A stretch of 26,917 nucleotides of DNA, taken from Oxalobacteraceae bacterium (GTDB lineage: Bacteria; Pseudomonadota; Gammaproteobacteria; Burkholderiales; Burkholderiaceae_D). The notes below the pieces were generated by a model. The model searched no databases, had not been told where the DNA came from, and saw only the letters and a list, made by a program, of their open reading frames with translations. Location: contig JAIXOW010000245.1 of assembly GCA_027486615.1 (NCBI GenBank), forward strand, positions 1-26,917, in the 5' to 3' direction. The stretch's first letter is position 1; the number at the start of each line of letters is the position of its first letter. The position numbers were made by a program, and so were the translations under genes. Shown in pieces: positions 6,324 through 23,921 of the stretch.

Positions 6324-6348
6324 TGGTGTGGGGCGGAATCGAAACGAG
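6324..6348 (-). repeat. decayed tRNA-3'-end-like remnant (b)
   Basis: TGGTGTGGGGCGGAATCGAAACGAG matches TGGTGGCCCGGGGCGGAATCGAACCACC at 13441. Confidence 0.5.
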
Positions 6349-6376
6349 ATGAGGATGTCTGAACTGTTTATCTGAG

Positions 6377-6640
6377 TTACTCGTAGTGATATCGACAAGC
6401 GATCACAATGATTTGGTCTTTCTCAATGGCGTAGACAAGCCGATGCGTGTCATCAATTCGCCTTGACCAAAATCCCGCAAGGTTTTCTCGTAAAGGTTCT
6501 GGCTTACCTATACCGACTTCTGGGTCGCGCATCACTTCTTTAACAAGTAAGTTAATACGCTTAAGTGTTTTCTTATCTTGACTTTGCCAGTACACATAGT
6601 CTTCCCACGCTGCGTTGGTCCAGACTAACTTACTCCGCAT
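6377..6640 (-). CDS. yoeB: YoeB/Txe family toxin (mRNA interferase)
   Basis: WEDYVYWQ...GKPEPL...WSRRIDDTHRLVY...CRYHY. Confidence 0.9.
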   Translation of the reverse strand: MRSKLVWTNAAWEDYVYWQSQDKKTLKRINLLVKEVMRDPEVGIGKPEPLRENLAGFWSRRIDDTHRLVYAIEKDQIIVIACRYHYE

Positions 6641-6887
6641 CGACCAATCCCTTGGATTTGGTCTGACCTTTACGATATTGAGTGATAGATTTTTCTAAAT
6701 GTTTGGCGTTTGCAGGACTTTTCATCAGATGGAGTGTTTCCATCAAACTGTTGAAGGTGTCCAGAGACATCACGACTGCATCTTGTGCATCGCGTCTGGA
6801 AATCACAGTGAAGTCAGCGTCGTCCACGACTTGATCGATCACTTGTTTGAGTTGATTTCTTGCATCGGAAAAGTTGATCACTCGCAT
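6630..6887 (-). CDS. yefM: YefM/Phd family antitoxin
   Basis: MRVINFSDARNQLKQVIDQVVDD... overlaps yoeB by 11 nt. I start it at the internal Met (6887), not the ORF-track start (7001). Confidence 0.85.
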   Translation of the reverse strand: MRVINFSDARNQLKQVIDQVVDDADFTVISRRDAQDAVVMSLDTFNSLMETLHLMKSPANAKHLEKSITQYRKGQTKSKGLVDAE

Positions 6888-6990
6888 AGAGTCTCCGTAA
6901 GTACTTGTTCTATAAATAGTACAAGTATACGGACTATAAAGCAAGCTACAAGAGACAAAAAAACTATCTAAAGATGGATTTTGTACATCT

Positions 6991-7013
6991 TGGTGGCACA
7001 AGGTGGAATTGAC
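6991..7013 (-). repeat. decayed tRNA-3'-end-like remnant (c)
   Basis: ACATCTTGGTGGCACAAGGTGGAATTGAC. The ACATCTTGGTGG prefix is identical to the 13436 copy. Confidence 0.4.
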
Positions 7014-7132
7014 TAGCGCATAGGATGCTCAATTCTGTCTAATTACAGAGTTTTGATGGTTACAGCTTTCCCTGTAAAGTAGGCTAGAGTTAAGATTGCT
7101 TCATCTCATTAATATTTTTATATTTTCTAACT

Positions 7133-8095
7133 ATGCTAATTAATTGCGCCTCTTACCTAAACGGTAAAAAAATCGCTGATATTGAAATTGAACATATTAG
7201 CGATTACCTTGCCAATAAAGATTCTTTTGTTTGGGTGGCGCTGCTAGACCCAACTGTCGATGAGATTATGAAAATGAAGGAGGAGTTTGATCTTCATCCT
7301 TTGGCTGTGGAAGATGCGTTAACTGGTCATCAAAGACCTAAGATTGAAGAGTATGGTAATAGCTTGTTCGCCGTGATTCAGGTATTGAAGTATGACGATG
7401 ATATTTCAGTTGGTGAATTAGATATTTTTGCGGCGTCTGATTATGTTCTATCTGTTCGTAATCGATCTGATGTGACTTTCTTAGGAGTTAGAGAACGTTG
7501 TGAGCAAGAGCCGCAACTATTAAGACAAGGCTCAGGTTTTGTTCTCTACGCTCTTATTGACGCTGTTGTAGATCGCTATTTTCCGATTGTTGAAAGGTTA
7601 GAGCTGGAGCTAGAAAATATTGAAGAAACTCTTTTTGATGGGCGTTATACCAAGTCTAATATTGAAAGACTTTTTGCGCTTAAAAGAAAAGTGATGGTCG
7701 TTAAGCATGCCGTCTCTCCGCTAATGGAAGCAGTAGGAAAATTGTCGAGTGGTCGAGTGCCACCCATTTGCGCCAATAGCACTGAATATTTTCGAGATAT
7801 CTTAGATCACTTAACTCGTATTAACTCTGTTATTGAAAGCATACGAGATGCTATCGGGACAGCAATTCAAGTCAGCTTATCTGCGATTGCACTTGAACAA
7901 AATAATATTCAAAAACGCTTAGCATCTTGGGCGGCTATATTCGGTGTGGCAACTGCTTTTGCTGGAATTTGGGGCATGAACTTTGAACAGATGCCAGAAT
8001 TAAAGTGGGATCTAGGTTATCCAGTAGCAGTAGTTATTATCGTATCTGCTTGCTCATTCTTGTACTGGCGCTTTAAACGATCGGGCTGGCTATAA
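7133..8095 (+). CDS. corA: CorA family Mg2+/Co2+ transporter
   Basis: 320 aa with a GMNF motif followed by two C-terminal TM helices. Confidence 0.9.
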   Translation: MLINCASYLNGKKIADIEIEHISDYLANKDSFVWVALLDPTVDEIMKMKEEFDLHPLAVEDALTGHQRPKIEEYGNSLFAVIQVLKYDDDISVGELDIFAASDYVLSVRNRSDVTFLGVRERCEQEPQLLRQGSGFVLYALIDAVVDRYFPIVERLELELENIEETLFDGRYTKSNIERLFALKRKVMVVKHAVSPLMEAVGKLSSGRVPPICANSTEYFRDILDHLTRINSVIESIRDAIGTAIQVSLSAIALEQNNIQKRLASWAAIFGVATAFAGIWGMNFEQMPELKWDLGYPVAVVIIVSACSFLYWRFKRSGWL

Positions 8096-8149
8096 GTTTG
8101 TCCTTGCGCTTTAAACGATCGGGCTGGCTATAAGTTTGTCCTTGCGCTT
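8069..8149. repeat. perfect 38-bp tandem duplication (2 copies plus 5 nt) spanning the corA stop
   Basis: CGCTTTAAACGATCGGGCTGGCTATAAGTTTGTCCTTG occurs at 8069-8106 and again at 8107-8144, then CGCTT. Confidence 0.9.
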
Positions 8150-8150
8150 A

Positions 8151-8747
8151 TCAAATTTGTAGCTGGAAACTCAAATGGGCATCTACCGAAGGAAATTCAC
8201 TTACCAAAATGCTGTACACGCAAGTATCTCGAATACTTTCCTTAGCATCTGGATGTCGATTAATTTGGTGGCTTCGTAATATGCCGTCTAGCTTCGCTCC
8301 TAATCTCTCAATACCTCTACGACTTTGATGATTAAAAAAATGTGTTCGGAATTCCACAGCAATACAATCTAACCTCGTGAATGCGTAACGCAACAGCATC
8401 AATTTACATTCCGTATTAATCGCCGTTCGCTGAACCGACTTCCTATACCAAGTAGATCCTATTTCTAGTCTACGATTTTCTTGGTCAATATTCATGTATG
8501 TTGTCATTCCAATGGGGTTGCTATTGGCATCCAAAATACAAAATGGATTCATGGAGCCTAACTGCTGTAAGCCCAAACGTCTCTCAATCTCTTTTGCCAT
8601 TGTCGTGGGTGATGGAATACTCGTATACCAAAGTTTCCAAAGTTCACCATCTCTAACGGCAGCACATAAACCATCATGATGCGCCATAGTTAATGGCACC
8701 AATGAGGCATGCTTACCTTGTAGGGTTACTGGATCAGAGAATTTCAT
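8151..8747 (-). CDS. GNAT family N-acetyltransferase (RimJ/RimL-like)
   Basis: 198 aa with an Acetyltransf_3-like layout, including L.PL...H...L and E.G..W. Confidence 0.75.
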   Translation of the reverse strand: MKFSDPVTLQGKHASLVPLTMAHHDGLCAAVRDGELWKLWYTSIPSPTTMAKEIERRLGLQQLGSMNPFCILDANSNPIGMTTYMNIDQENRRLEIGSTWYRKSVQRTAINTECKLMLLRYAFTRLDCIAVEFRTHFFNHQSRRGIERLGAKLDGILRSHQINRHPDAKESIRDTCVYSILVSEFPSVDAHLSFQLQI

Positions 8748-8916
8748 AACGTTTCATATCTAAGGCTGTTTGACTTAATTCTGCCATAGACAAAGATGCT
8801 ATGTGTTGTCATGACTGCTTATATTAAATATGCGAACTGATTTGAATGATGGGTTAAATACGATTTTAAAAACGGAATATAGTATATTTACGTATCGCTA
8901 TTATTAAGGAGTTCTG

Positions 8917-9312
8917 ATGCGTTTCATCTTGCCGATTATGCTATTAGTGGTAGGCATTATTCACATCTTGCCACTATCTGGAGTGCTCAGTGCTGCTAGG
9001 TTATTTGAACTTTATGGAATGACGTTTGATGATCCGAATTTAGAAATTTTGATGCGTCATCGAGCTGTTTTATTTGGATTACTAGGAATTTTTCTTATCT
9101 GTTCTGCTTTTATGCCTAGCCTTCAACTTCCTGCTCTGATTGCAGGATTTCTAAGTGTAGTTTCATTTTTATATTTGTCCTATACAGTTGGTGGATATAA
9201 CGAACAAGTGAATCGTATTGTTATAGCTGACAAGATAGCGTTAGTTTGTCTAGTAGTGGCTCTAGTTTCTTATCTAGTAAAAATTTTTAATACAGAACAA
9301 GTGGCTATGTAA
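8917..9312 (+). CDS. hypothetical 4-TM membrane protein
   Basis: 131-aa hydrophobic ORF with a GGAG Shine-Dalgarno sequence upstream. Confidence 0.5.
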   Translation: MRFILPIMLLVVGIIHILPLSGVLSAARLFELYGMTFDDPNLEILMRHRAVLFGLLGIFLICSAFMPSLQLPALIAGFLSVVSFLYLSYTVGGYNEQVNRIVIADKIALVCLVVALVSYLVKIFNTEQVAM

Positions 9313-9338
9313 AAAGTCACCTAGTTGGGAATTCATAA

Positions 9339-9355
9339 AGTCTAGTTACTGGGCG
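9339..9355 (+). repeat. 17-nt hairpin palindrome, copy 1 (degenerate)
   Basis: aGTCTAGTTACTGGgCG lies 27 nt after the stop of 8917..9312. Confidence 0.5.
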
Positions 9356-9512
9356 CTTGTTGATTGTTTAATGATGAGTTAATTATTTATATAAATTTTG
9401 CAATCATTGCGACTTAGTTTCTGAACATTTTCCGATATCATAATAAATGTATTAATAATTAGCTCCTTTTTAATTACAGATAAATTTAAAAATTTTTATT
9501 AGGAATCAAATC

Positions 9513-9860
9513 ATGTTTGCAGAATTAATAGACAAACTTATTGATGAATACAATTCTGACCCAAGAAATAAAATCTTTATCAATGAAGAAATTTTATTGG
9601 CTTCAGCAAAAGAAGAAACTGGTAATGATGTTTCTACTGACCAATTACGAAGTGCAATAAAAAATTTCCTATCTGGCGAAATGGAAGATGACGATTATTC
9701 CATTTATGACGGTGCTATCTATGCATGTGCGGTTGCCTCAAATAATTGCTTTGGTAATCCCGAAGAACATGAAGATGATGACGACTACAGCGTAGATTAT
9801 GAAATTGATTGGATTGAAAGTGACGACGGTTCATTTTGTGCCGAGATTCGTCCGTCTTAA
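9513..9860 (+). CDS. very acidic small hypothetical protein
   Basis: 115 aa rich in D/E (EDDDY and EHEDDDDY runs), with a GGA Shine-Dalgarno-like sequence upstream. Confidence 0.45.
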   Translation: MFAELIDKLIDEYNSDPRNKIFINEEILLASAKEETGNDVSTDQLRSAIKNFLSGEMEDDDYSIYDGAIYACAVASNNCFGNPEEHEDDDDYSVDYEIDWIESDDGSFCAEIRPS

Positions 9861-9990
9861 CCAATGTGCGATTTATCGTTTTAAACGACAAAGGGGGCAC
9901 GCTAATCAGGATTGAGTATCGCCACTATAAGGATTTAATGCCTAATAACTGTCTGGACTTTTAGCAGGGTGAGCTAATTGGTGATGTGAC

Positions 9991-10020
9991 AAAAAAAAGA
10001 CTGTCTAGGCAGTCTTTTTT
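9991..10020. terminator. bidirectional rho-independent terminator
   Basis: A8-GACTG-TCTAGG-CAGTC-T6. Confidence 0.6.
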
Positions 10021-10027
10021 CATATCT

Positions 10028-10054
10028 TAGAGGCACAAGGCGAAATCGAACCGG
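10028..10054 (-). repeat. decayed tRNA-3'-end-like remnant (d)
   Basis: ATATCTTAGAGGCACAAGGCGAAATCGAACCGG shares GGCACAAGG with remnant (c). Confidence 0.45.
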
Positions 10055-10167
10055 TTTTCGGAAACTCCAACTTTTGAGAGAATGGAGCCATTAATAATAC
10101 GAATAAACTTTACCTGAAGTCTGGGATCGCGCAATACGACTGGAGCAGGAAGACTAAGTAAGCCCTC

Positions 10168-10671
10168 ATGATCGAGCTTAAATCATTGAACAAAGACCAT
10201 ATGGCTGATGTCCTGCGAATTCAGGAACACTGCTATACCGAGATAGAGCCTGAATCGCTCGAGTCACTTCAGGCGAAGATTTTGTCGTCGCCTAGTACTT
10301 GCCTGATCGCTGAATCCTGCGAAGGACCGGTTGGGTATCTGATTGCGGTACCCATTATTTATCCTCACTTACCAGCTTTAAACTCTCCAACTTTTGAGAT
10401 TTTAGAAGGTGCAGATACGCTCTACATCCACGATCTTGCCGTTGTGAGTGCCGGACGAGGGAAAGGTGTAGCTCAGGAGTTGATGCGTGCTTCAATCAAT
10501 GCCGCGAAAAGCAAGGGACTATCGCATGCCTGCCTAGTAGCGATTCAAAGCTCACAAAAATTCTGGGAACAGTTCAGATTTGAGGTGGTGGCGGAACCGG
10601 CCAAAGAGCTTATGCCCAAGCTGGCGAGTTATGGCGCCAGTGCACAGCTTATGCGCGCTTCGAAAATATGA
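10168..10671 (+). CDS. GNAT family N-acetyltransferase
   Basis: The acetyl-CoA motif IHDLAVVSAGRGKGVAQELM is present. GC is about 50%, higher than the flanks. Confidence 0.8.
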   Translation: MIELKSLNKDHMADVLRIQEHCYTEIEPESLESLQAKILSSPSTCLIAESCEGPVGYLIAVPIIYPHLPALNSPTFEILEGADTLYIHDLAVVSAGRGKGVAQELMRASINAAKSKGLSHACLVAIQSSQKFWEQFRFEVVAEPAKELMPKLASYGASAQLMRASKI

Positions 10672-10802
10672 GCTTGGCTTCTGACAGAACTTTGTGGCGG
10701 AAACTATCGGGTGCGGTGAAGTTGTGGGACAGTTATGGAGCGGCTCAGGCGCTAAAATAAAAACGCCAAGCAGAGTAGCTTGGCGCGCTATGCCAATGTT
10801 CT

Positions 10803-10836
10803 TGGAGGCTAGGGGCGGAATCGAGCCGCGCTGATG
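10803..10836 (-). repeat. decayed tRNA-3'-end-like remnant (e)
   Basis: TTCTTGGAGGCTAGGGGCGGAATCGAGCCGCG. Its reverse complement reads like a T-arm plus acceptor plus CCA. Confidence 0.5.
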
Positions 10837-10898
10837 ATGCCTGATCCTAGGCCTAATCGGTAGATTTAAATGATGAATATCATTTTGGTTTTTTAGAA

Positions 10899-11993
10899 TT
10901 AAGGAACTATGACAGTGAAAAGATAAACTGCAAAGATTACCAAATGGACTGTACCCTGCATGATAGTAGTACGTCCTGTACCTAAAGAAATTGATGCTAC
11001 AAGTAGTGATAGAAGCAAAAGTACAGTTGATTTAGCATCGATACCTAGTGAGAGGGTTAGTCCGTACATTAAAGAAACAATTGCAACAGCAGGAATCGTC
11101 AATCCAATACTAGCCAATGCTGAACCTAGCGCTAGATTAAGGCTAGTTTGTAATCGATTGGCTCGCGCTGCTTGGTAAGCAGCAATACTTTCGGGTAGCA
11201 AAACTACCGTGGCAATGATAACGCCAACAAGTGATTTTGGCGCACCAACACTTGCTATAAAACTTTCTAAAGTGGGGGAGAGAGCTTTAGCTAACAACAC
11301 TACCGCAACTAGGCATGCAAGCATAAGAACGGCGCTGAGTTGAGTCATCTTTTTTGTTGGCGGAGGTGCGTGAACTGTTTCATCTGCCACCTCAGTTATT
11401 GGTAGAAAATAGTCTCTATGTCGTACAGTCTGAACTAAGATGAAAGTAGCATAAAGTATGAATGAGACAATTGCGATAAACGATAATTGACTGCTACTGT
11501 AAAAAGGACCTTGGGTAGTTGTTGTGTAATTGGGTAGGACTAGGGTGAGAACTGAAATCGCAGCCAAGGTCGCTAATGAAGCAGATACACCAAGTAAGCC
11601 AAAAGATTGTTCTAGATGCCGACTTGCGCCACTTAGCAAACAAATCCCAACCAAGCCATTAAGTATGATCATCACTGATGCAAAAACCGTATCTCGAGCT
11701 AAACTGCTTTCGGATTCACCTCCAGCAATCATAAGCGATACGATAAGCGCAACTTCGATTGCAGTGACAGCAAGTGCAAGTACCAATGTACCGTAAGGCT
11801 CGCCAACCTTATGAGCTACCACCTCTGCATGAAATACTGCAGCCAGAATACTAGCAATTAGGCTAGCTATTAGTAGAAACTTAAATACGCTACTGAGTGT
11901 GAATTCGCTGGCAGTTAATAAGAGTCCCAAAAATAACCAAGCCACAATTGGGGATAATATTGTCCATGTAGGTAATCGATAAGATAATTTCAT
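10899..11993 (-). CDS. CaCA family calcium/cation:proton antiporter (ChaA-like)
   Basis: 364 aa with about 10-11 TM segments and a GEPYGTLVLALAVTAIEVALIVSLM alpha-repeat-like motif. Confidence 0.8.
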   Translation of the reverse strand: MKLSYRLPTWTILSPIVAWLFLGLLLTASEFTLSSVFKFLLIASLIASILAAVFHAEVVAHKVGEPYGTLVLALAVTAIEVALIVSLMIAGGESESSLARDTVFASVMIILNGLVGICLLSGASRHLEQSFGLLGVSASLATLAAISVLTLVLPNYTTTTQGPFYSSSQLSFIAIVSFILYATFILVQTVRHRDYFLPITEVADETVHAPPPTKKMTQLSAVLMLACLVAVVLLAKALSPTLESFIASVGAPKSLVGVIIATVVLLPESIAAYQAARANRLQTSLNLALGSALASIGLTIPAVAIVSLMYGLTLSLGIDAKSTVLLLLSLLVASISLGTGRTTIMQGTVHLVIFAVYLFTVIVP

Positions 11994-12071
11994 GTATTAA
12001 TTTTATATCAGTCTTAGCTTAAATTTTTGAATAAGTGAACATATAAAAATCTAATATTTGAGCATTCATTC

Positions 12072-12088
12072 CGCCTAGTTACTGGACG
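12072..12088 (+). repeat. 17-nt hairpin palindrome, copy 2
   Basis: CGCCTAGTTACTGGACG in the divergent intergenic region. Confidence 0.6.
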
Positions 12089-12127
12089 CGATAATCGATA
12101 GAATCAGCTTAATGTTAGGACCAATTA

Positions 12128-12475
12128 ATGAATCAAGTTAGAAAAAACAAAATTACCTTTTTCGCCATTACGTATTTTGCGTTATTGATGGCATTCAGCT
12201 TAATTTTTGATAAACCAATCAGGAGTATTTTTCTTTACGCTATTCCTGTTGTTATCATTGCAGCTCGTAGCGGTTGGCGTGCAGGTTTTTTTCTATCACT
12301 TCTTGCAACGCTTATTGCTTGGTTTGGACAAGCTTTTCCTACCGTTCCAGAAAATGCTGGTCTTGAATTTGAAGAAGCACTTATTACGCTAGCAGAACTT
12401 GTTATTGCTTCAGTTGTTGCATCAGCAGTTGCAAGAAAAATTTCTGGAGTGTCAAAAGATAAGCTTTTTGACTAA
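12128..12475 (+). CDS. hypothetical membrane protein
   Basis: 115-aa ORF with 3 hydrophobic segments. The overlapping 12207..12392 ORF is rejected. Confidence 0.45.
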   Translation: MNQVRKNKITFFAITYFALLMAFSLIFDKPIRSIFLYAIPVVIIAARSGWRAGFFLSLLATLIAWFGQAFPTVPENAGLEFEEALITLAELVIASVVASAVARKISGVSKDKLFD

Positions 12476-12597
12476 GACATTCAAAGTAATTTTATAGAGC
12501 TTAAGTTATAAAGTTACTTACTGATTTTTGAATTAGATATCGTCTCTTAACGAGATGCTTCCAAGTCTCAATTTCTCTATTGCGGACTTTGCCTACT

Positions 12598-12621
12598 TGG
12601 TGGCTCTAGAGGTAATTGAAC
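12598..12621 (-). repeat. decayed tRNA-3'-end-like remnant (f)
   Basis: CTACTTGGTGGCTCTAGAGGTAATTGAAC. Confidence 0.4.
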
Positions 12622-12632
12622 TAAATTAAGAA

Positions 12633-12916
12633 TTTACTGATCTCAATCTATCTCATCATTGTTCAAAAGCGTAACTTATATCTTGCTCTTGTAGACGTAA
12701 AGATGAATGAGAATATTTCAAAAAATTTTCTTTATGCCTTCTGTAATACAAAAGTCCTTCTTTGATGCTTGCTACTGTTGCGCCTTGTTCTAGCATTTTG
12801 TCCCACAAGTTCCAATCCTCTTGAGGATGAACGCCATCTTCATATCTTTTTTTGTAGCCAATTTTTTGTCCAAAATCTGTACGGTACATCATGGATCCAT
12901 GATGCTGGCCTTGGCG
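12633..12916. repeat. direct repeat copy A (3' part of the GT2 gene plus 23 nt downstream)
   Basis: Collinear with 26634-26917 with no indels. I count about 13 mismatches in 284 positions by eye. Confidence 0.9.
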
Positions 12917-13330
12917 ATTCCAATACAAGTCACCTTTATAAGGGCGCGTCTCACCAGGCACTCTCGTTAAGATTTCTTCCTTTAATTCACCAGTTACAAC
13001 AATGTCGTAGGTGACGATATCGGTGCTGGCATTAGAAAGTAATTCAATTGCATCTGAACGCAACCAATTATCAGCGCCTATGAAAAGCACATACTCTGTA
13101 TCCACCTTAGACAGCATGTTGTGAAAGTTATCTACAACGCCCAAATTTTTTTGTCTGAAAATGTATTCAATATCTGGATATAGACTTGGTAGGTGGCTGC
13201 AATCTAAACCTCCGTCATCGACGAATAAAATTCTTGAGGGGAGGGTTGATTGAGATAGCAATGACTCTATGCAATGCGCTGCAAGATGTCCGTATCTATA
13301 AGAGGCGATGATGACTGTAATCATATTCAT
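12656..13330 (-). CDS. family 2 glycosyltransferase
   Basis: [27 protein letters not shown]...FVDDG is the GT2 N-terminal pattern. The ORF-track start at 13375 is an alternative. Confidence 0.8.
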
Positions 13331-13406
13331 TGGCACGAGAGCATGAGGGCATAAGAAAACGACTTTGCCGCTCATTGGAGCTCTTTTGGCAACTTTTCAT
13401 CGCAAT

Positions 13407-13432
13407 AAAAAAACCACCCGAAGGTGGTTTTA
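13407..13432. terminator. bidirectional terminator hairpin (ACCACC-CGAA-GGTGGT)
   Basis: A-run, 6-bp GC stem with GNRA-like loop, then a T-run. The same unit recurs at 26565 and a variant at 25555. Confidence 0.6.
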
Positions 13433-13440
13433 TTACATCT

Positions 13441-13485
13441 TGGTGGCCCGGGGCGGAATCGAACCACCGACACAAGGATTTTCAA
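13441..13485 (-). pseudogene. tRNA-Phe(GAA) 3' fragment (anticodon loop to CCA), likely an att-site remnant
   Basis: Reverse complement is TTGAAAATCCTTGTGTCGGTGGTTCGATTCCGCCCCGGGCCACCA, giving an intact T-arm, acceptor 3' strand and CCA. The sequence where the 5' half should be (13486-13516) is unrelated. Confidence 0.75.
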
Positions 13486-13629: not shown

Positions 13630-13646
13630 CGTCCAGTTACTGGACG
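13630..13646. repeat. 17-nt hairpin palindrome, copy 3 (perfect, C-G at the variable pair)
   Basis: CGTCCAGTTACTGGACG. Confidence 0.7.
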
Positions 13647-13701
13647 GTGACCGACTCAAGGATTCCTTCTCCTTGGGTTCGTGGACTTTGCTATGGCGCA
13701 C

Positions 13702-13718
13702 CGTCTAGTTGCTGGACG
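13702..13718 (+). repeat. 17-nt hairpin palindrome, copy 4 (TTG loop)
   Basis: CGTCTAGTTGCTGGACG. Confidence 0.7.
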
Positions 13719-13963
13719 ATGAAGTAGGGAAAGGCTGGTCATCTTGCGGCACTTACGTATTGAGCAGCGGAGTCAATTAATAGTGTTGCCTCAATGCAGT
13801 TCTTGAAACTTTTAGTTGTATGGATGACCCAGGGTAGCCTATGCTTATCATTATAAAGAAAGTATGCAGAGCTGAATTAGTGAGTCGTCTATAGTTTATG
13901 TGGCAAGTTCGCCAGACTGGGCAATAAAGTCAAAGTAGAAAAAAAGAAAAAAAACGCAATTAC

Positions 13964-14731
13964 ATGACTAAGAAAATTATTGAACCTTCAGAGTACACAC
14001 GCCCACCAATTACTGAGGCTGTAATTGAGATTGTCTTCGCAGGAGAAGTAAAAAATGATGTCGTAAATAAAGTCTCGAAAAAATTCAAAAAATACTATAC
14101 AAACGACATACCAGTAACTCAATATGATGTTCGAGTGGATGTGCAGCCAAGTACAGCTGGGGGGGCGACAGCAAATCTAAAAAAAGAAAAAAAGGGGCAG
14201 CGTTTATCGACCTCGGATGAGACAGAAATATTGGTAATATGGCCGAATTCAATTTCTGTCTCCCAAATTGCCCCATATAAAGGTTGGGATATATTTCACA
14301 AAAGATTCGCTAGAGATTTTAAACTTCTTAAAAAAGAAGTGGGTATACGAGAGATAAAGCGAATTGGAGTTCGCTATATCAATAGAATTGATATTCCGGC
14401 AGTCGAGCCAATAGTTGAGCACGAAGAATATATAAATATTTTCCCCAAGCTGCCAGATAATTTGACCCCACTTACAGCCTATATGGTGCAAGCCGAACTT
14501 CAGCTGCTTGATGTAGGTGCAAACTTGCGTATCAATTCCTCCGCTGTACCTTCGCCGATAGCTGATCATGCATCTTTTGTTATTGACTTAGATTTTTATC
14601 GAATCCACGATATGCCGAGTAGTGATAAAAAATTAAATGAATATTTAAATCTCATAAGAGAAAAAAAGAACGAAATATTTGAATCTTTGGTGAAGGACAA
14701 AGCTCGAGGATTGTTTAAGAACGAGAAATAA
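13964..14731 (+). CDS. hypothetical protein, TIGR04255-like (recall-based)
   Basis: 255 aa. The N-terminal YTRPPITEAVIEIVF resembles the N-terminal hallmark of the TIGR04255 family as I remember it. First gene of a tightly packed operon. Confidence 0.55.
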   Translation: MTKKIIEPSEYTRPPITEAVIEIVFAGEVKNDVVNKVSKKFKKYYTNDIPVTQYDVRVDVQPSTAGGATANLKKEKKGQRLSTSDETEILVIWPNSISVSQIAPYKGWDIFHKRFARDFKLLKKEVGIREIKRIGVRYINRIDIPAVEPIVEHEEYINIFPKLPDNLTPLTAYMVQAELQLLDVGANLRINSSAVPSPIADHASFVIDLDFYRIHDMPSSDKKLNEYLNLIREKKNEIFESLVKDKARGLFKNEK

Positions 14732-14738
14732 AAGGTAA

Positions 14739-15371
14739 ATGGTCATGGAATATCAACACAAACTCGAAACTAATAAAGTGTCCAATCGCATGTCGATAGG
14801 CGGGTTTCCAATTCCAAGAGATGTAGATGCAAATTCGAGCACGCCAAACTACTCTCAAGAATTAATTTCAAAATTTCGAGATGGAAAAAACACCACAGCA
14901 CTTCCGTCAAAAGAAAGTATTTTGAAGGAAGGTGATACTAGACTCGAAATTTTCAATGCTACGGCGGCTGCCAAGATGCTGACTTCCTATGTATCGATGC
15001 ATCTAAAAGACGAATGGAGAAAAAATATTTTTTTTCAACTAGACTTGATACACGAATTTGAAGAGTGGGATGACGAATTAAGCCCGATAGGGCGTGACTC
15101 AATGACAACCTTCTTGAAAGCGATGCTAAAAGTCAACCTAAAGAAATATCCGGGACTAGGTCTGACCAATAAAGGGTATTTAATTGCCGCGTGGACAGAA
15201 AATCAAAAAAAACTCACTTTGGAATTTCAGCCAAAAGATAAGGTTAAATGGATTGTGTCTCAAGAATTGAGCCCAGAAGAAACTGAAAGGGCGGCAGGCT
15301 TTACAAATATCAGAAGGCTATACAGGTGCATTGCTCCTTATGGGGTGCAGAGTTGGTTCACAGAGAAATAA
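14739..15371 (+). CDS. hypothetical protein (no recognisable motif)
   Basis: 210-aa ORF starting 8 nt after the upstream stop. Its TAA stop (15369-15371) runs into the A16 tract. Confidence 0.5.
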   Translation: MVMEYQHKLETNKVSNRMSIGGFPIPRDVDANSSTPNYSQELISKFRDGKNTTALPSKESILKEGDTRLEIFNATAAAKMLTSYVSMHLKDEWRKNIFFQLDLIHEFEEWDDELSPIGRDSMTTFLKAMLKVNLKKYPGLGLTNKGYLIAAWTENQKKLTLEFQPKDKVKWIVSQELSPEETERAAGFTNIRRLYRCIAPYGVQSWFTEK

Positions 15372-15829
15372 AAAAAAAAAAAAAAGGGAGTTTGATACCT
15401 GACAGAGACCATGTAATAAGACATGTTCCTCTAGCTAAAACCCGTCGCGACTCGGATGGAAAAGTGTGCGGAATATTGCCGCAAGCTATAGAGCGTCGCG
15501 ACAGTGAAGAATATTTGTCAGTCAGTCATTATGAGCATTTTTCTGGCTCGCAAGTTCAAAAATTGTTTAGCGTCAAAAATGCGATAGCTTCTGGCAAGCG
15601 AAGTGGAACTCTAGGAATTAAAGGGCTCCTTGCAAAGGCAAACGTTGGTAATCTTAAGCAATCTGTCGAGAAAAAGACTGCGAAAAAAATTCGCGTTGCT
15701 TATTTGCCTACCAAAAAAGACTCTTCGCATTCAGGTGTATATAAACTTCCTGAAGAGGATTCCGAGTTAATGGATGCTTTGGCAAGTGAGGTTTTTTCGG
15801 AAATTTTTTTCTTGAATGATATAAAGTGA
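15326..15829 (+). CDS. hypothetical protein with an A16 tract in its 5' coding region; start uncertain
   Basis: The open frame begins at GTG 15326 (or TTG 15353) and overlaps the upstream gene. There is no usable start with a Shine-Dalgarno sequence downstream of the A-run, so the run is probably coding (KKKKK). Confidence 0.45.
   Translation: MHCSLWGAELVHREIKKKKKGSLIPDRDHVIRHVPLAKTRRDSDGKVCGILPQAIERRDSEEYLSVSHYEHFSGSQVQKLFSVKNAIASGKRSGTLGIKGLLAKANVGNLKQSVEKKTAKKIRVAYLPTKKDSSHSGVYKLPEEDSELMDALASEVFSEIFFLNDIK
15370..15385 (+). repeat. homopolymeric A16 tract
   Basis: Counted directly: one A at 15370, ten at 15371-15380 and five at 15381-15385. Confidence 0.95.
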
Positions 15830-15883
15830 AAACGAAATCCTTGAGTAAATACTTTAGTAATTACAAGCTCAAGGAGACAGCAA

Positions 15884-16243
15884 ATGCGTTTTTACGAATT
15901 CGCCTCACAACCCAGACCAGTCCTGAAGATCAGCCAGCAGCAAGCTGCGAATCAAAGCAACAAACTACCCACGCCCTTCCCAACAAATAAACAACCAACT
16001 CCCGCACCAGCATCAATTAATGTCTATCCAGAAGAATGGCAGCATAAGTGGGTACAAAAATATCTAGCTGCAAAGATAGCCCGTAACGCACAGACCATTA
16101 AGCCAACTGAAGAAGATATAGTGCGGGCACAGATGATGTATGCAGATGCTAAACGTAAAGCTGATCAAGAGTACGAAGAAGTAAATGGAAAGTCAGACGA
16201 AGAATCTGGCTGGCAAGGTGAACATCGTTGGGTCAAGCGATAA
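15884..16243 (+). CDS. hypothetical P/Q-rich then charged small protein
   Basis: 119-aa ORF with a strong AAGGAG Shine-Dalgarno sequence 6 nt upstream of the ATG. Confidence 0.5.
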   Translation: MRFYEFASQPRPVLKISQQQAANQSNKLPTPFPTNKQPTPAPASINVYPEEWQHKWVQKYLAAKIARNAQTIKPTEEDIVRAQMMYADAKRKADQEYEEVNGKSDEESGWQGEHRWVKR

Positions 16244-16250: not shown

Positions 16251-16277
16251 CTCAGCGTCCAGCAACTAGACGCTGAG
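16251..16277 (-). repeat. 17-nt hairpin palindrome, copy 5 (reverse orientation, TTG loop, extended to a 12-bp stem)
   Basis: CTCAGCGTCCAGCAACTAGACGCTGAG between convergent stops. Confidence 0.75.
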
Positions 16278-16290
16278 CATCTGTAAAGAA

Positions 16291-17917: not shown

Positions 17918-18044
17918 ATTATTTAAGTCATTGATTCTTGGAAGATCTCGGCTTTTTACTACCCAATAAAAAAGAGGTCGTCCATTTTGGAAAAAGAAAA
18001 CACAATAAAAGCATGTGTTTTATTTATCTAAAAAGGACAAAAAC

Positions 18045-18611
18045 ATGGCACAAGCTAAAACCCTAACCCAAGCAGAATTTGATCAAGCACTTCGTTATAT
18101 CAGCACGAGAAACTTTGCAATTCGTAATCGCACTTTATTTTTAATTAGTCACTGGTCGGGAATGAGAGTGGGAGAAATCGCAAGTCTCACAATTGCTGAT
18201 GTTGTTAATGCAGATGGCAGCATCAAAGCTGAAATACGCTTAACAGCAGAGCAAACCAAAGGCAGACACCCCAGAACAGTCTATTTGCCACAAAAGCTCA
18301 TAGAAGAAATCCAGTATTACCTACGTCATCGCTGCGTCAATAGCACAAGTGAATCCTTGTTCTATACAGCAAATGGCAAGCCATTTACTGCAAATAGTCT
18401 CTGTCAGTACTTTTTTTGGATGTACAGAAAAGCTGGTATTGCGGGAGCAAGCAGTCACAGTGGACGCAGAAATTTTATTACTTCATTGGCTGCTAAAGGT
18501 ATATCAGTTCGTGTACTTGCAAGTCTTGCAGGACACCGTGATATCTCAGTTACACAAAAGTATATCGACGTATCAGACGATATGAAGCGAGCCGCAGTGG
18601 AATTGGTTTAG
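18045..18611 (+). CDS. small (FimB/FimE-sized) tyrosine recombinase, catalytic domain only
   Basis: GMRVGEIASL (Arg I), HSGRRNF (HxxR) and GHRDISVTQKY (His/Tyr). I start it at ATG 18045, which has an AAGGA Shine-Dalgarno sequence. Confidence 0.85.
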   Translation: MAQAKTLTQAEFDQALRYISTRNFAIRNRTLFLISHWSGMRVGEIASLTIADVVNADGSIKAEIRLTAEQTKGRHPRTVYLPQKLIEEIQYYLRHRCVNSTSESLFYTANGKPFTANSLCQYFFWMYRKAGIAGASSHSGRRNFITSLAAKGISVRVLASLAGHRDISVTQKYIDVSDDMKRAAVELV

Positions 18612-21301: not shown

Positions 21302-21334
21302 AAATGAACCGTCTAGTAACAGGACGGTTCATTT
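21302..21334 (+). repeat. 17-nt hairpin palindrome, copy 7 (TAA loop, 12-bp extended stem)
   Basis: AAATGAACCGTC-TAGTAACAG-GACGGTTCATTT between convergent stops. It overlaps the integrase stop codon. Confidence 0.75.
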
Positions 21335-22574
21335 ATGCTAGTTTCTCAGCGTTCAGCATAGGCGTTATTTTGCTGTAATGTTTTTCAATCATTCCAATCG
21401 AAGTTCCCATCTGTCGTGCAAGTGTGTGTATATCAACACCACTTGATAGTGCAAAGGTCGCATAAGTGTGACGTAAACTATATAAAGTTCTATTGCGACC
21501 AGCAGTATCTAGTGCTAGACCAGAATCCCGCATTAAAGTTCGAAATACGCCTTCCATTTGATAAGGTGTACCGCCATTAGGATAAGCAAACACGAGTTTA
21601 TCTATTCGAGCGTTAATGACATCATTCAAATCAGTGCAACCCAAATCCTGCCAATCAGCTAATCGCTCTAGCACAGGAATAGTTTGATGTTTAGCGATTA
21701 AATAGCGTGGTCCTGTTTTGCCTGAGACCCACAGACGCAAATATTTTTGTTCACCAGTGTAGTGCCACTGCAAATGCCGCCAGCGCAAAGCTCTAGCTTC
21801 TGTTCCATGTCTAATGCCTGTGTATAACAAGAACTCGACATACGATCGACATAAGCGGCGCATTAAGCGAGACATCTGTAGTCGTCCACCTAATTCCCAA
21901 TTAACCATAAAAGCTAACAATTCATCAATCTCAGATTGTGAAAAAGCTGGGCGGGCTTGACTCTTTTCTCCATCGATGGGTAGATCAGGAAATGCTCTCT
22001 CCGTCGAAATAAGTCCTTGTTTGCGGGCAAGTTTGATTACACGGTTATAGGCACTGGCGTGATTACGCATGGTACTGGCTTTGGGCTCACGTCCCATAAT
22101 CATTTCACGCCATGCTGAAAAATCTTCAATCGTTTCGTCTCTTATATCAACGATAGGTATTTTTCCGAAAAAAGGTATTAGATACTTATTGATTGCGAAG
22201 ATATAGTCTTTATAAGTTATTGGTGCTCGAGAGTTATCTAATGCTCGTCGCATAGCTGCAAGTTCTTCTTGTGCCACCGCACTAAATGTCTTCTTAGAGA
22301 TAGATTCGCCAGCAGCTAGTTGGCTCAGAATCTGGTGCTGAACTTCTATGCCCGCAGTTTTGGCTAAGTCAAGATTGCTTTGGCCAGTACTCGCAGAGTG
22401 CCAATTGCCAGAAGGTAGTTTGAAGCGAACTTGCCATCTGCTACTCGTTGACCGTTTATAGAGAGTTGCTGTGTGGTCAGCCTGAGATGCCGTTAATTCA
22501 ACGGACTTGGAGATGATGTTGAAAAGTGCATTTAGATTTTGCAAAGCAAGCGTCCAGTTACTAGACGCTTGCAT
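21333..22574 (-). CDS. tyrosine-type site-specific integrase
   Basis: C-terminal LYSLRHTYATFAL...GTSIGMIEKHYSK. The N-terminal start is uncertain because the first codons are palindrome copy 8. Confidence 0.9.
   Translation of the reverse strand: MQASSNWTLALQNLNALFNIISKSVELTASQADHTATLYKRSTSSRWQVRFKLPSGNWHSASTGQSNLDLAKTAGIEVQHQILSQLAAGESISKKTFSAVAQEELAAMRRALDNSRAPITYKDYIFAINKYLIPFFGKIPIVDIRDETIEDFSAWREMIMGREPKASTMRNHASAYNRVIKLARKQGLISTERAFPDLPIDGEKSQARPAFSQSEIDELLAFMVNWELGGRLQMSRLMRRLCRSYVEFLLYTGIRHGTEARALRWRHLQWHYTGEQKYLRLWVSGKTGPRYLIAKHQTIPVLERLADWQDLGCTDLNDVINARIDKLVFAYPNGGTPYQMEGVFRTLMRDSGLALDTAGRNRTLYSLRHTYATFALSSGVDIHTLARQMGTSIGMIEKHYSKITPMLNAEKLA
22546..22572 (-). repeat. 17-nt hairpin palindrome, copy 8 (reverse orientation, TAA loop, extended stem)
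   Basis: GCAAGCGTCCAGTTACTAGACGCTTGC. The minus strand reads CGTCTAGTAACTGGACG. Confidence 0.75.
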
Positions 22575-22616: not shown

Positions 22617-23921
22617 TCAATTTCTTCCAATGGCGGTCCGCTTACTCTGAAGTAATTGAATATTCATTTCAGCAGTTAAATTTGATGCGTAAAATTGTTC
22701 AATCATTTGGACAGATGTTCTTGAGTTTCTTGCTAAAGTTAATAAATCTATTCCCTGTCCATAAAGCAAACGAAACATAATTGCTGTGTGTCGTAGGCTA
22801 TAAAGTGATCGACTCTGGCCAAGTGGCCCCGTCTTTAGATTTGATTCAGATAAAATTTTATTGAAGTGAACAGATAGTAGTGGCCCTACGATTTTTCTAT
22901 TTTTGATTTGAGGTAGAAATAAATAATCCTCTTGTGAGGCTAGTCCGATTCTATCCATGTATTTTTTTAACTTTTCATAAACTCGAACCGCAGGTCTTAG
23001 AGTGACAATTTGAGCTTTATGTCTTTTGGTCTCTGGGAGGGTTAATCGTAAGTATGTATTTTCTTGTCTAATTATTTCTACATGCTTATGCTGAATATGT
23101 ATGACATCGCTGGGTCGCATAAAGCCATTGACCATAAATCGAATAATCCAAATCATTTCCTTTGGTACGTTTTGACTTCTAGTGAATGCACCTCCAGCAC
23201 GATTTCTATGAGTGGGTATCGTATTTGCAGTAGATATTTTTGATAGTTTACGGGCAGTTTTTGTTAATAGAAGATATTCTTTAGTAGTAAATCCTCCTCT
23301 TGGAAGAAATTGTTTTCTGATCTTTGGAAATAAAGGTATACGATAAATTAATTCATTTTCTAATGCATAGTGAAGTATTTTCTTTAGAGATTGTAGATGT
23401 TGGGAAACTGAAATTGATCCTAATTGTCTATCACTTAATGTTGTGATTAGATGGTGTATGTCTTTCTGATTTATTTCCTTAATATCTCTATGTCCAAACA
23501 TTGGTAATAAACAGCCATTCACTCGATATCTAAAATTTTTAAAGGTTGTTTCAGATATTTCGCCAAATAATTGTCTTTGGTGTTCAAAGGCGATGACTTT
23601 ATCTGCTATGTCAGTAAATTGTGTGGATTTGCCATCAACAGATCGCTTATCTGTATCGTGTGGTTTATACCGAAAACCTATTAGCTGATTAAAAAAAGAC
23701 TTCGCTCTTTCCTCTGCAATATTCAAATCAACTACTTTTGAAGATTTGGTAATGACGTGGCTACCAAATCTTATATGTATTTGCCAGAAAGGGCTGTTGG
23801 TAACCTGATAAAGTTTAAGTGATTTAGGGTAACCTTCAATTTTATGTCTCGCCGAGCTTACTGATTTCAATATCTCTTGATTTTTAAATGGTATTGAGAG
23901 CGAAGGAGTAGTTGATGGCAT
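22617..23921 (-). CDS. tyrosine-type site-specific integrase (second, tandem)
   Basis: LYSLRHTAIMFRL...SRTSVQMIEQFYAS, with a WQIHIRFG arm-type N-terminus similar to WQVRFKLP in the neighbouring integrase. Confidence 0.9.
   Translation of the reverse strand: MPSTTPSLSIPFKNQEILKSVSSARHKIEGYPKSLKLYQVTNSPFWQIHIRFGSHVITKSSKVVDLNIAEERAKSFFNQLIGFRYKPHDTDKRSVDGKSTQFTDIADKVIAFEHQRQLFGEISETTFKNFRYRVNGCLLPMFGHRDIKEINQKDIHHLITTLSDRQLGSISVSQHLQSLKKILHYALENELIYRIPLFPKIRKQFLPRGGFTTKEYLLLTKTARKLSKISTANTIPTHRNRAGGAFTRSQNVPKEMIWIIRFMVNGFMRPSDVIHIQHKHVEIIRQENTYLRLTLPETKRHKAQIVTLRPAVRVYEKLKKYMDRIGLASQEDYLFLPQIKNRKIVGPLLSVHFNKILSESNLKTGPLGQSRSLYSLRHTAIMFRLLYGQGIDLLTLARNSRTSVQMIEQFYASNLTAEMNIQLLQSKRTAIGRN

What the first reader, a model, noticed from the sequence alone, without database searches (positions are those of the whole stretch)
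13964..16243. Tightly packed AT-rich operon of unknown genes at the insertion-proximal end of the island: candidate undescribed defence or abortive-infection module
Seen in sequence: four same-strand ORFs are tightly spaced and closed by the 27-bp hairpin at 16251-16277.
- 13964..14731.
- 14739..15371, after an 8-nt gap.
- 15326..15829, overlapping the previous gene.
- 15884..16243, with its own AAGGAG Shine-Dalgarno sequence.

Sample lines here are about 25-35% GC, against about 50% in 19.7-20.5 kb of the same island, so this is a separately acquired cargo block. Only the first protein reminds me of a named family, TIGR04255, a sporadically distributed family of unknown function. The next two proteins have no motif I can place.

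Inference: the block sits next to the att fragment in an integrase-bearing island, is surrounded by TA and nuclease-like genes, has translationally coupled genes and carries a hypermutable tract. This context is typical of phage-defence cargo. No function can be read from the sequence.
Basis: partly seen in the sequence, partly recalled or inferred. Interest (0 to 1): 0.72.

Follow-up and report, generated by a model that had tools for sequence, protein, structure and literature searches.

The report
Widespread mobile three-gene cassette, function unknown
The flagged block is one copy of a conserved three-gene operon (a TIGR04255 protein plus two unnamed partners) that travels between distant bacteria on genomic islands, prophages and plasmids and looks like an undescribed phage-defence or toxin-antitoxin-type module, although no function has been demonstrated.

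Summary
The four ORFs, the Shine-Dalgarno sequence and the hairpin are at the stated coordinates, and gene 1 is a TIGR04255 member (110 bits, cutoff 30). Several supporting claims are wrong.

- GC is 39.6%, the same as the core and the island.
- The gene 2/3 overlap and the A16 "hypermutable tract" are private to this assembly. Four other assemblies read TAATG there.
- The hairpin is one of 10 copies of a lineage-specific palindrome.
- Gene 4 is a local passenger, and no TA or nuclease gene flanks the block.

The real unit is genes 1-3. In one-genome-per-species data, 59 of 68 gene-1 loci carry genes 2 and 3 directly downstream on the same strand. All three genes are under purifying selection (dN/dS 0.10-0.21). 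Their contexts vary widely and include prophage accessory regions and restriction-modification, AbiE, GmrSD and TA neighbours.

An empty-site comparison places the island at tRNA-Phe, 480 nt upstream of gene 1.

Genes 2 and 3 match no Pfam, NCBIfam, PADLOC or PHROGs family. Gene 3 (pLDDT 94) has no fold relative in the PDB.

The most likely reading is an undescribed conflict (defence or abortive-infection-like) cassette. I put this at about 0.45. The mechanism is inferred, not shown.

The parts
13441..13485 (-). 3' 45 nt of tRNA-Phe(GAA). This is the displaced att remnant that marks the left end of the island.
   Evidence: The segment is identical to the 3' part of the intact tRNA-Phe in the island-free relative (L099 16290-16365). 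The alignment and BLAST synteny both stop at window 13485. ARAGORN finds no complete tRNA in the window, and the 5' half is absent.
13630..13718 (.). Two copies of the island/lineage-specific palindrome CGTCYAGNNNCTRGACG, lying upstream of the cassette (13630-13646 and 13702-13718).
   Evidence: The copy at 13696-13722 is 89% complementary to the one at 16252-16278.
13964..14731 (+). Gene 1: a TIGR04255-family protein of 255 aa. It is predicted to be a pseudo-dimeric beta-alpha-beta4-alpha x2 (TBP-like/helix-grip-like) protein with conserved charged residues: E18, R80, R133/R137/R141/D143, D208/D210 and K235/E240.
   Evidence: NCBIfam gives 109.7 bits against a cutoff of 30. There are 639 homologues. 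Invariant columns are listed. The AF2 model has pLDDT 89.7. Foldseek's top hits are TBP, with probability 1.0 but TM only 0.26-0.43. dN/dS is 0.10.
14739..15371 (+). Gene 2: an unnamed protein of 208-210 aa (gene callers use the ATG at 14745). It has a variable N-terminal third and a conserved C-terminal domain of about 140 aa (ATAxAK...EWR...LD..H...EWD...P...PGLGL..G.L.AAW...LT.EF...W...AG.T...RL...PY...WF).
   Evidence: It has no Pfam, NCBIfam, PADLOC or PHROGs hit. Only 6 word-indexed homologues were found, but it sits downstream of gene 1 in 59 species. The alignment is A2. A PDB profile search was negative. dN/dS is 0.21.
15370..15385 (+). A16 tract that replaces the native TAATGAAACGCAAAAAA junction and removes the gene 3 ATG. 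It is probably an assembly or consensus artefact.
15371..15829 (+). Gene 3: an unnamed alpha/beta protein of 152 aa (MKRKKGSLIPDRDHVIRHV... in relatives). In this window the native ATG reads AAA, so ORF callers extend the gene back to the GTG at 15326. R17 and S50 are invariant, and A39, R43, L49, E55 and H120 are nearly invariant.
   Evidence: The family has 414 representatives at 50% clustering, almost all 140-160 aa and standalone. Conservation is given. None of 128 members shows a consistent Pfam hit. The AF2 model has pLDDT 93.9. There is no PDB fold match; the best E-value is 1.3. One unnamed phage protein matches in BFVD. dN/dS is 0.11.
15884..16243 (+). Gene 4: a 119-aa Q/P-rich protein with its own AAGGAG. 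It is a lineage-specific passenger in the same transcription unit and is not part of the conserved cassette.
   Evidence: It is present only in the window's lineage and the closely related L007 (L001, L002, L007, L110/L111) and absent from all other triad loci. It has no significant family hit.
16251..16277 (.). A palindromic hairpin between the cassette and the convergent DUF6641 gene. It is one member of a 10-copy family in the window.
   Evidence: The same element lies 17 nt after gene 3 in Polynucleobacter loci.

Best explanation
Positions 13964-15829 are one copy of a self-contained, translationally coupled three-gene operon, gene 1 - gene 2 - gene 3. Gene 1 is a TIGR04255 protein, gene 2 is an unnamed protein of about 210-230 aa, and gene 3 is an unnamed protein of about 150 aa. 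The operon is conserved as a unit and moves horizontally as cargo of tRNA-integrating islands, temperate phages and, in variant form, plasmids. Here it sits 480 nt inside the left end of an island of at least 13 kb inserted into tRNA-Phe. A lineage-specific fourth gene is appended to it.

The most likely function is that of a conflict system: anti-phage defence, abortive infection or a toxin-antitoxin-like module.

Proposed working model (inferred, not shown):
- Gene 1 is a pseudo-dimeric sheet-plus-helix protein with rows of conserved Arg/Asp/Glu. It acts as the sensor or ligand (nucleotide or nucleic acid) binding subunit.
- Gene 3 is a small, structurally novel alpha/beta protein with invariant Arg17/Ser50 and near-invariant Arg43/Glu55/His120. 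It is the enzymatic effector.
- Gene 2 has a variable, probably disordered N-terminus and a conserved C-terminal domain. It couples or restrains the other two.

What is shown: operon conservation, purifying selection, mobility, and the lack of any relationship to characterised families. What is inferred: the defence role and the division of labour among the three proteins.
For: Operon conservation
- A search seeded with gene 1 in one genome per species found 79 loci. Of the 68 with at least 1150 nt downstream, 59 carry genes 2 and 3 immediately downstream on the same strand. These span Alpha-, Beta-, Gamma- and Zetaproteobacteria, Bdellovibrionales and CPR bins.
- The three proteins diverge in parallel: 100/84/65/64%, 100/76/55/54% and 99/80/66/59% identity.
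- dN/dS is 0.10, 0.21 and 0.11.
- Gene 3 begins before the gene 2 stop codon in 45 of 54 loci.

Mobility
- Two close relatives with an identical CorA protein have GT2 - intact tRNA-Phe - UbiH-like genes and no island.
- All 7 IMG/VR contigs with enough sequence carry the full triad. Terminase, portal, head protease and integrase genes lie within 8 kb, and in L102 the triad abuts the integrase.
- A variant triad lies in the portal-proximal accessory region of a P2-like Ralstonia prophage. That region is the gpA-gpQ locus reported as a defence hotspot in PMC9122126.
- The identity ranking ignores taxonomy. A Spartobacteria bin is 60% identical, whereas Polynucleobacter is 52%.

Defence-type neighbours in individually inspected loci
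- MvaI/BcnI + Vsr + Dcm next to an integrase.
- GmrSD, a PIN-FitA pair and a DUF1016 gene.
- AbiEi plus a DprA-like gene.
- A pair of SLFN-type helicases.
- VapBC + methylase + Cas6 on a Thermus plasmid.
- A census of 150 flanking ORFs also found a type III R-M system, AbiEi/AbiEii, PD-Lambda-2_B and PDC-S05.

Modularity
- Distant gene 1 relatives (26-30% identity) are followed by two other small coupled genes of at least two different kinds. This is the pattern expected of a conserved core paired with swappable partners.
Against: - No component hits any PADLOC v2 model, and no phenotype exists.
- The neighbour census (3 ORFs on each side in 25 species) is dominated by diverse housekeeping genes. 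Only a minority are defence genes, and no matched control was run, so enrichment is not demonstrated.
- The family is rare on sequenced plasmids (2 distant hits) and in the phage database (1 distant hit).
- Nothing in the sequences identifies a nuclease, NADase, pore or any other familiar effector.
- The TBP-like similarity of gene 1 is topological only (TM 0.26-0.43).
- In this particular window gene 3 lacks its ATG. If that is real, this copy may be impaired.
Confidence: 0.45

Rival explanations
1. The cassette is an addiction or stabilisation module (a tripartite toxin-antitoxin-like system). It persists on islands, prophages and plasmids through post-segregational killing and has no specific anti-phage role.
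For: - The genes are small and their reading frames overlap.
- Distribution is sporadic and horizontally mobile, with carriage on integrative elements, prophages and plasmids.
- TA pairs are frequent neighbours: VapBC, PIN-FitA and AbiE.
- 6 of 59 loci show split or frameshifted genes, as is common for dispensable selfish modules.
Against: - None of the three proteins matches any toxin or antitoxin family in Pfam, NCBIfam or PADLOC.
- No protein has a detectable DNA-binding antitoxin domain.
- At about 255 aa, gene 1 is large for a TA component.
- TA and abortive-infection roles are not mutually exclusive, so this rival overlaps the main reading.
Confidence: 0.2
2. The cassette is a non-conflict accessory operon, for example a small-molecule-binding or enzymatic stress or metabolic function. 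It happens to be mobile.
For: - Most immediate neighbours in the 25-species census are housekeeping or metabolic genes.
- Gene 1 has the helix-grip/TBP-like architecture typical of ligand-binding proteins, with weak fold hits to AdoMetDC and SRPBCC cyclases.
- Purifying selection is strong.
Against: - No metabolic neighbour or pathway gene is conserved in any locus.
- Species occupancy is very low, about 117 confirmed hits among 185,579 species.
- The cassette occurs in prophage accessory regions and next to integrases.
- The partner genes are swappable.
Confidence: 0.15
3. The cassette serves the mobile element itself, for example in counter-defence, superinfection exclusion by prophages, or regulation of excision or transfer.
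For: - It sits next to integrases and att sites (this window; L011; L102).
- It lies in a P2-type hotspot alongside a PAAR/Tox-REase-5/Imm52 competition cassette.
- In this window and in Polynucleobacter islands it co-occurs with the phage-associated DUF6641 (phrog_31551).
Against: - Many loci have no detectable mobile-element gene within +/-3 ORFs.
- DUF6641 is restricted to the Polynucleobacter-like lineage.
- Superinfection exclusion would itself count as defence.
Confidence: 0.1
4. In this particular genome the cassette is a decaying, non-functional copy, because gene 3 has lost its start codon to an A-tract.
For: - The ATG reads AAA at 15371-15373, and the only upstream in-frame start is a GTG with no Shine-Dalgarno sequence.
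- 6 of 59 other loci show frameshifts.
Against: - All eight clustered differences from four other assemblies are changes to A inside A-rich runs, with no length change. This is the signature of a consensus error, not of evolution.
- The rest of gene 3 is 98-99% identical to intact copies and has no stop codon.
Confidence: 0.12

Closest known systems
TIGR04255 / NCBIfam 'TIGR04255 family protein' (sporadically distributed, function unknown)
   Same: Gene 1 is a full-length member, at 109.7 bits against a cutoff of 30. Public annotations of its homologues use this name.
   Different: The family definition covers a single protein with no function assigned. The obligate two-gene downstream partnership found here, and its alternative partner sets, are not part of any description I could find. 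No paper in the searchable library mentions the family.
Accessory anti-phage systems of prophage and island hotspots (for example P2 old/tin and the gpA-gpQ hotspot systems of Rousset et al. 2022, PMC9122126)
   Same: It is a small multi-gene cassette of unknown-domain proteins. It is carried at the att- or integrase-proximal end of islands and in the portal-proximal accessory region of a P2-like prophage, and it is sporadic and horizontally mobile.
   Different: It has no sequence relationship to any validated system in PADLOC v2. The P2-like example is a distant variant (27% identity in gene 1) in Ralstonia, not E. coli. No phenotype has been tested.
Tripartite toxin-antitoxin / abortive-infection modules (for example AbiE and TAC-type systems)
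   Same: It is a compact operon with overlapping reading frames on mobile DNA, it often neighbours other TA systems, and its components co-evolve.
   Different: None of the defining domains is present: no nucleotidyltransferase, PIN, RelE/ParE, HTH or RHH antitoxin, and no SecB-like chaperone.
TBP-domain / helix-grip (SRPBCC, AdoMetDC-like) pseudo-dimeric alpha+beta folds
   Same: The gene 1 model is a duplicated beta-alpha-beta4-alpha unit. TBP chains are the top Foldseek hits, with probability 1.0.
   Different: TM-scores are only 0.26-0.43, sequence identity is 8-11%, and the protein is about 70 residues larger. This is a shared topology, not demonstrated homology or DNA binding.

Membership tests
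TIGR04255 (NCBIfam) | Whole-protein HMM score above the curated cutoff, with full-length coverage | tested here: met
   109.7 bits against a cutoff of 30. Residues 11-252 match profile positions 2-252 of 252.
Conserved 'TIGR04255 triad' operon (defined here) | Homologues of gene 2 and gene 3 lie directly downstream of gene 1 on the same strand, in unrelated genomes | tested here: met
   59 of 68 species loci, 7 of 7 viral contigs, and metagenome loci L004-L015.
Conserved 'TIGR04255 triad' operon (defined here) | Gene 4 (15884-16243) belongs to the unit | tested here: not met
   Gene 4 occurs only in the window's lineage and the closely related L007 (L001, L002, L007, L110/L111) and is absent from all other loci.
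Known anti-phage defence systems (PADLOC-DB v2.0.0, including PDC candidates) | HMM match of at least one component to a system model | tested here: not met
   Genes 1-3 give no hit at E <= 0.1. Gene 4 gives only a 12-bit chance hit.
Defence-island gene family (guilt by association) | A majority of homologues lie within about 10 genes of known defence genes, above the background rate | tested here: inconclusive
   Defence genes appear in most individually inspected contexts. In the +/-3-ORF census of 25 species they appear in only a minority of loci. No control set was run, and the census output does not map hits to individual loci.
Type II/tripartite toxin-antitoxin systems | A recognisable toxin and antitoxin domain pair | tested here: not met
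   Genes 1-3 have no Pfam, NCBIfam or PADLOC toxin or antitoxin family.
Type II/tripartite toxin-antitoxin systems | One component is toxic and is neutralised by a cognate partner | not testable with these tools
   This needs expression experiments.
TBP-domain superfamily | Structural superposition at fold level (TM of about 0.5 or more) or sequence-profile homology | tested here: inconclusive
   Foldseek gives probability 1.0 and E 2e-4, but TM is 0.26-0.43. A PDB profile search found nothing.
Phase-variable (contingency) locus | A homopolymeric tract conserved in relatives, with length variation that switches the reading frame | tested here: not met
   The tract is absent from L001, L002, L007 and L110. 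It has the same length as the non-repetitive sequence it replaces, and it lies after the gene 2 stop codon.
tRNA-integrated genomic island | An empty site in close relatives, a displaced tRNA 3' fragment at the junction, and a tyrosine integrase | tested here: met
   L098 and L099 carry an intact tRNA-Phe and no island. Identity with the window ends at 13485. Integrase genes are at 18015-18611 (truncated), 21333-22574 and 22617-23921. The right-hand junction lies beyond the contig end.

The most novel reading that the evidence does not exclude
The TIGR04255 triad is a previously unrecognised family of anti-phage (abortive-infection-type) systems built from three protein families with no characterised relatives. 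Its effector (gene 3) has no fold relative among solved structures. The TIGR04255 protein is a conserved sensor core that pairs with at least three alternative downstream two-gene partner sets: type A as here, type B in the P2-like Ralstonia prophage, and type C with the QGD/TQSCDL protein.
Probability: 0.35. Interest if true: 0.75.

Novelty: new variant of a known kind. Interest (0 to 1): 0.55.

Why it matters
If the triad is a defence or abortive-infection system, it would add a widespread system whose three proteins have no relationship to any known immune component. The gene 1 family has more than 600 members and the gene 3 family has 414 clusters at 50% identity, spread across many phyla, prophages and islands. 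One of the three proteins would also have a fold not yet represented in the PDB.

The family would give TIGR04255 its first functional context. TIGR04255 has been catalogued as a "sporadically distributed" protein of unknown function.

The apparent swapping of partner genes around a conserved gene 1 would offer a natural experiment in sensor-effector modularity.

Even if the function proves different, recognising genes 1-3 as one conserved unit corrects the annotation of hundreds of loci that currently carry "hypothetical protein" labels.

Tried and rejected
Family and structure searches
- Pfam, NCBIfam, PADLOC and PHROGs scans of genes 2, 3 and 4 found nothing meaningful.
- A Pfam scan of 128 gene 3 homologues gave only three unrelated single-member hits.
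- Pfam scans of the variant partner proteins found nothing.
- PDB sequence and profile searches for genes 1, 2 and 3 found nothing.
- A Foldseek search of gene 3 against the PDB had a best E-value of 1.3. DarT, at rank 6 with probability 0.03, was rejected as noise.
- Against BFVD, gene 3 matched one unnamed phage protein, probably a homologue.
- Gene 1 against the PDB showed TBP-like topology only. I considered a triphosphate-tunnel (CYTH/Pct1) reading, but the hits had probability of about 0.2 or less and there is no ExExK motif, so I did not adopt it.

Other tests
- hhalign of gene 2 against genes 1 and 3 showed no internal paralogy.
- hhalign of the type-B partners against genes 2 and 3 aligned the same motifs, but the statistics were weak (probability 1-13%), so homology is left as suggestive.
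- Rfam and tRNA scans of the window found nothing.
- Literature searches for TIGR04255, IPR026349 and CHP04255 returned zero papers.
- Cluster look-ups did not return organism names.

Ideas rejected on the evidence
- Compositional evidence for separate acquisition was rejected.
- Programmed frameshifting or phase variation at the A-tract was rejected.
- I considered whether the palindromes mark recombination-type cassette boundaries. They are confined to one host lineage and behave like REP or terminator elements, so I left this as an aside.
Full report
**1. Observation**

All four ORFs exist at the stated coordinates on the + strand. AAGGAG precedes gene 4, and a stable hairpin lies at 16251-16277.

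Several supporting statements fail.
- GC of the block is 39.6%. The chromosomal core is 39.9% and the island 40.0%. The comparison stretch at 19.7-20.5 kb is 45%. There is no compositional anomaly.
- The nearest TA pair (YoeB/YefM, 6380-6887) is in the core, 7 kb away. The GIY-YIG gene is 9.4 kb away. No island gene matches a PADLOC model beyond generic AAA hits.

**2. The gene 2/3 junction and the A-tract**

In four other assemblies of this lineage (L001, L002, L110 and the 80% relative L007) the junction reads GAAATAATGAAACGCAAAAAAGGGAG. This is a TAATG stop-start overlap, and gene 3 is 152 aa, beginning MKRKKG.

The window has A16 in exactly the same length, with five substitutions, all to A. 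Over 3318 aligned bases the window differs from L001 at 12 positions, and 8 of these are changes to A inside two A-rich stretches (13939/45/48 and 15372/73/77/78/79). That pattern points to a consensus artefact. The tract also lies after the gene 2 stop codon, so it could not fuse or switch the two frames. The "overlap from GTG 15326" is an ORF-calling fallback.

**3. The hairpin**

The core palindrome CGTCYAGNNNCTRGACG occurs 10 times in the window, with 0 expected by chance. Nine of the ten copies are in the island. It is absent from 21 kb of the island-free relative L099. It is present in Polynucleobacter island loci, where one copy lies 17 nt after gene 3. The T-run of the 16251-16277 copy is on the minus strand. 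It is a lineage-specific REP or terminator-like element, not a feature of the cassette.

**4. Island context**

Two metagenomic relatives encode an identical CorA protein. They are collinear with window 1-13485 at 95-97% identity and then continue GT2 - tRNA-Phe(GAA) - UbiH-like - DsbC - ADH. The window retains only the 3' 45 nt of the tRNA (13441-13485) and then diverges. The tRNA 5' half is not in the window.

The island therefore begins at 13486, and gene 1 starts 478 nt inside it. The island also carries:
- DUF6641 (phrog_31551) and a 156-aa protein, both shared with a Polynucleobacter island;
- a truncated integrase;
- a 348-aa and a 269-aa protein, and a RarA/clamp-loader-like ATPase;
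- two full tyrosine integrases, a porin and a GIY-YIG gene.

**5. What the unit is**

Genes 2 and 3 are near-orphans in a word-indexed search, with 6 and 3 hits. Every locus containing them nevertheless has the order gene 1 - gene 2 - gene 3. Gene 1 relatives at about 50% identity in Polynucleobacter and other Betaproteobacteria are followed by proteins that align with genes 2 and 3 at about 33% identity.

A gene-1-seeded scan of one genome per species returned 79 loci. Local HMMs for the three proteins found genes 2 and 3 directly downstream in 59 of the 68 loci with enough sequence. Further observations:
- The three proteins diverge in parallel.
- dN/dS is 0.10, 0.21 and 0.11.
- Gene 3 usually starts before the gene 2 stop codon.
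- An exhaustive HMMER search gives 414 gene 3 representatives at 50% clustering, almost all standalone proteins of 140-160 aa.
- Gene 4 is confined to the window's lineage and the closely related L007.
- The three proteins are not paralogues of one another.

**6. Variant architectures**

The nine most distant gene 1 relatives lack genes 2 and 3, but each is followed by two small coupled genes.
- One type (L079, L083 and the Ralstonia prophage) has partners whose motifs line up with genes 2 and 3, although the profile statistics are weak.
- Another type has an unrelated third protein with QGD..L..CP, TQSCDL and PY.EHL.QAFARY motifs.
- None of these partners has a Pfam family.

**7. Mobility and neighbourhoods**

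The 150 nearest flanking ORFs from 25 species share no conserved partner. They are mostly diverse housekeeping genes, plus two integrases, a type III R-M system, AbiEi/AbiEii and a few candidate defence proteins.

Individually inspected loci show the following neighbours:
- MvaI/BcnI-Vsr-Dcm next to an integrase;
- GmrSD and a PIN-FitA pair;
- AbiEi and a DprA-like gene;
- SLFN-type helicases;
- VapBC, a methylase and Cas6 on a Thermus megaplasmid;
- HNH, ParB-N and a methyltransferase on a Crinalium plasmid.

All seven informative IMG/VR contigs carry the full triad among terminase, portal, protease and integrase genes. In a P2-like Ralstonia prophage the order is portal - Imm52 - Tox-REase-5 - DUF4123 - PAAR - variant triad. 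This is the portal-proximal accessory region that Rousset et al. describe as a defence hotspot between gpA and gpQ (PMC9122126).

**8. Structure**

The gene 1 model (pLDDT 89.7) is a duplicated beta-alpha-beta4-alpha unit. TBP chains top the Foldseek list with probability 1.0, but TM is only 0.26-0.43. AdoMetDC and SRPBCC di-domain proteins follow. Conserved Arg, Asp and Glu residues alternate along strands beta1, beta6 and beta9 and on the two long helices. By inference this suggests a polar binding pocket or surface.

The gene 3 model (pLDDT 93.9) has no significant PDB match, with a best E-value of 1.3. It has one unnamed phage match in BFVD. Its invariant or near-invariant residues are R17, R43, S50, E55 and H120, which are compatible with an enzyme but not diagnostic.

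**9. Interpretation**

Shown: a conserved, selected, translationally coupled three-gene operon that is horizontally mobile and unrelated to characterised families.

Inferred: a conflict function (defence, abortive infection or TA-like), with gene 1 as sensor, gene 3 as effector and gene 2 as coupler.

I put the defence or conflict reading at about 0.45. The remainder is split between pure addiction, mobile-element-serving and non-conflict accessory roles. No paper in the searchable library mentions the family, and PADLOC v2 has no model for it. The operon therefore appears undescribed, although newer catalogues could not be checked.

**10. Verdict**

This is a real and reasonably interesting candidate, but it is one of many uncharacterised accessory cassettes.

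Noticed in passing
window 12072, 13630, 13702, 16256, 17684, 19796, 21310, 22551, 25470, 26531 (17-nt cores); L016 11853, 15220, 18849, 20214; L008-L010: The palindrome family CGTCYAGNNNCTRGACG has 10 copies in the window (0 expected by chance), and 9 of them are inside the island at gene or module boundaries. It is absent from 21 kb of the island-free relative L099. It is present in Polynucleobacter island loci. It looks like an island-enriched, lineage-specific REP or terminator element.
   Followed up: partly
window 26627-26917 versus 12626-12916: The contig ends in a 95%-identical second copy of the 3' end of the glycosyltransferase gene that flanks the tRNA-Phe site. It also matches the same core locus in L099 at 94.7%. 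This suggests the island carries a captured copy of the flank, with the intact tRNA just beyond the contig end. It would also explain why the assembly breaks there.
   Followed up: partly
window 13939, 13945, 13948 and 15372-15379: Compared with four other assemblies, this contig has clustered substitutions to A inside A-rich runs (8 of 12 differences in 3.3 kb). This suggests systematic consensus errors elsewhere in this assembly too.
   Followed up: yes
window 4655-4687, 6317-6362, 6980-7013, 10799-10844 (minus strand): The 'core' part of the window contains several further sequences resembling tRNA 3' ends (TGGTGGC... / GGGGCGGAATCGA...), each next to a terminator-like hairpin. ARAGORN finds no tRNA gene. 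They may be remnants of older integrations or a repeat family.
   Followed up: no
window 22617-25412; L098 841-4295: The 434-aa integrase has an 83%-identical homologue beside a porin gene (35% identical to the window's porin) at a different chromosomal site in relative L098, next to the ferritin/Dps gene. An integrase-plus-porin module therefore appears to occupy different sites in closely related strains.
   Followed up: partly
window 6380-6887; L098 9232-9734; L099 9245-9755: The intergenic site between tag and corA holds YoeB/YefM in the window and in L099 but BrnT/BrnA in L098. This is a small TA-swapping hotspot in otherwise collinear core DNA.
   Followed up: partly
L097 (Ralstonia phage YO139_2, record 30.5-36.6 kb): This P2-like prophage carries a complete PAAR - DUF4123 - Tox-REase-5 - Imm52 (T6SS-type effector/immunity) cassette between its portal gene and the TIGR04255 variant triad.
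   Followed up: partly
L078, L082, L087, L088, L092, L093 (about 10.7-11.8 kb in each): Distant TIGR04255 genes are followed by a different pair of small genes. The third protein (175-225 aa) has QGD..L..CP, (L/I)TQSCD(L/I) and PY.EHL.QAFARY.MRVGLP motifs and no Pfam family. It may be an alternative effector.
   Followed up: partly
L036 (uncultured Spartobacteria MAG, 2712-3149): The highest-identity genome hit to gene 1 (60% over 146 aa, at a contig end) is in a Verrucomicrobiota bin, above any betaproteobacterium (52% or less). This is either cross-phylum transfer or bin contamination.
   Followed up: no
window 8060-8135: There is a perfect-register 38-nt tandem duplication (95% identity) that spans the corA stop codon and runs into the intergenic region downstream.
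   Followed up: no
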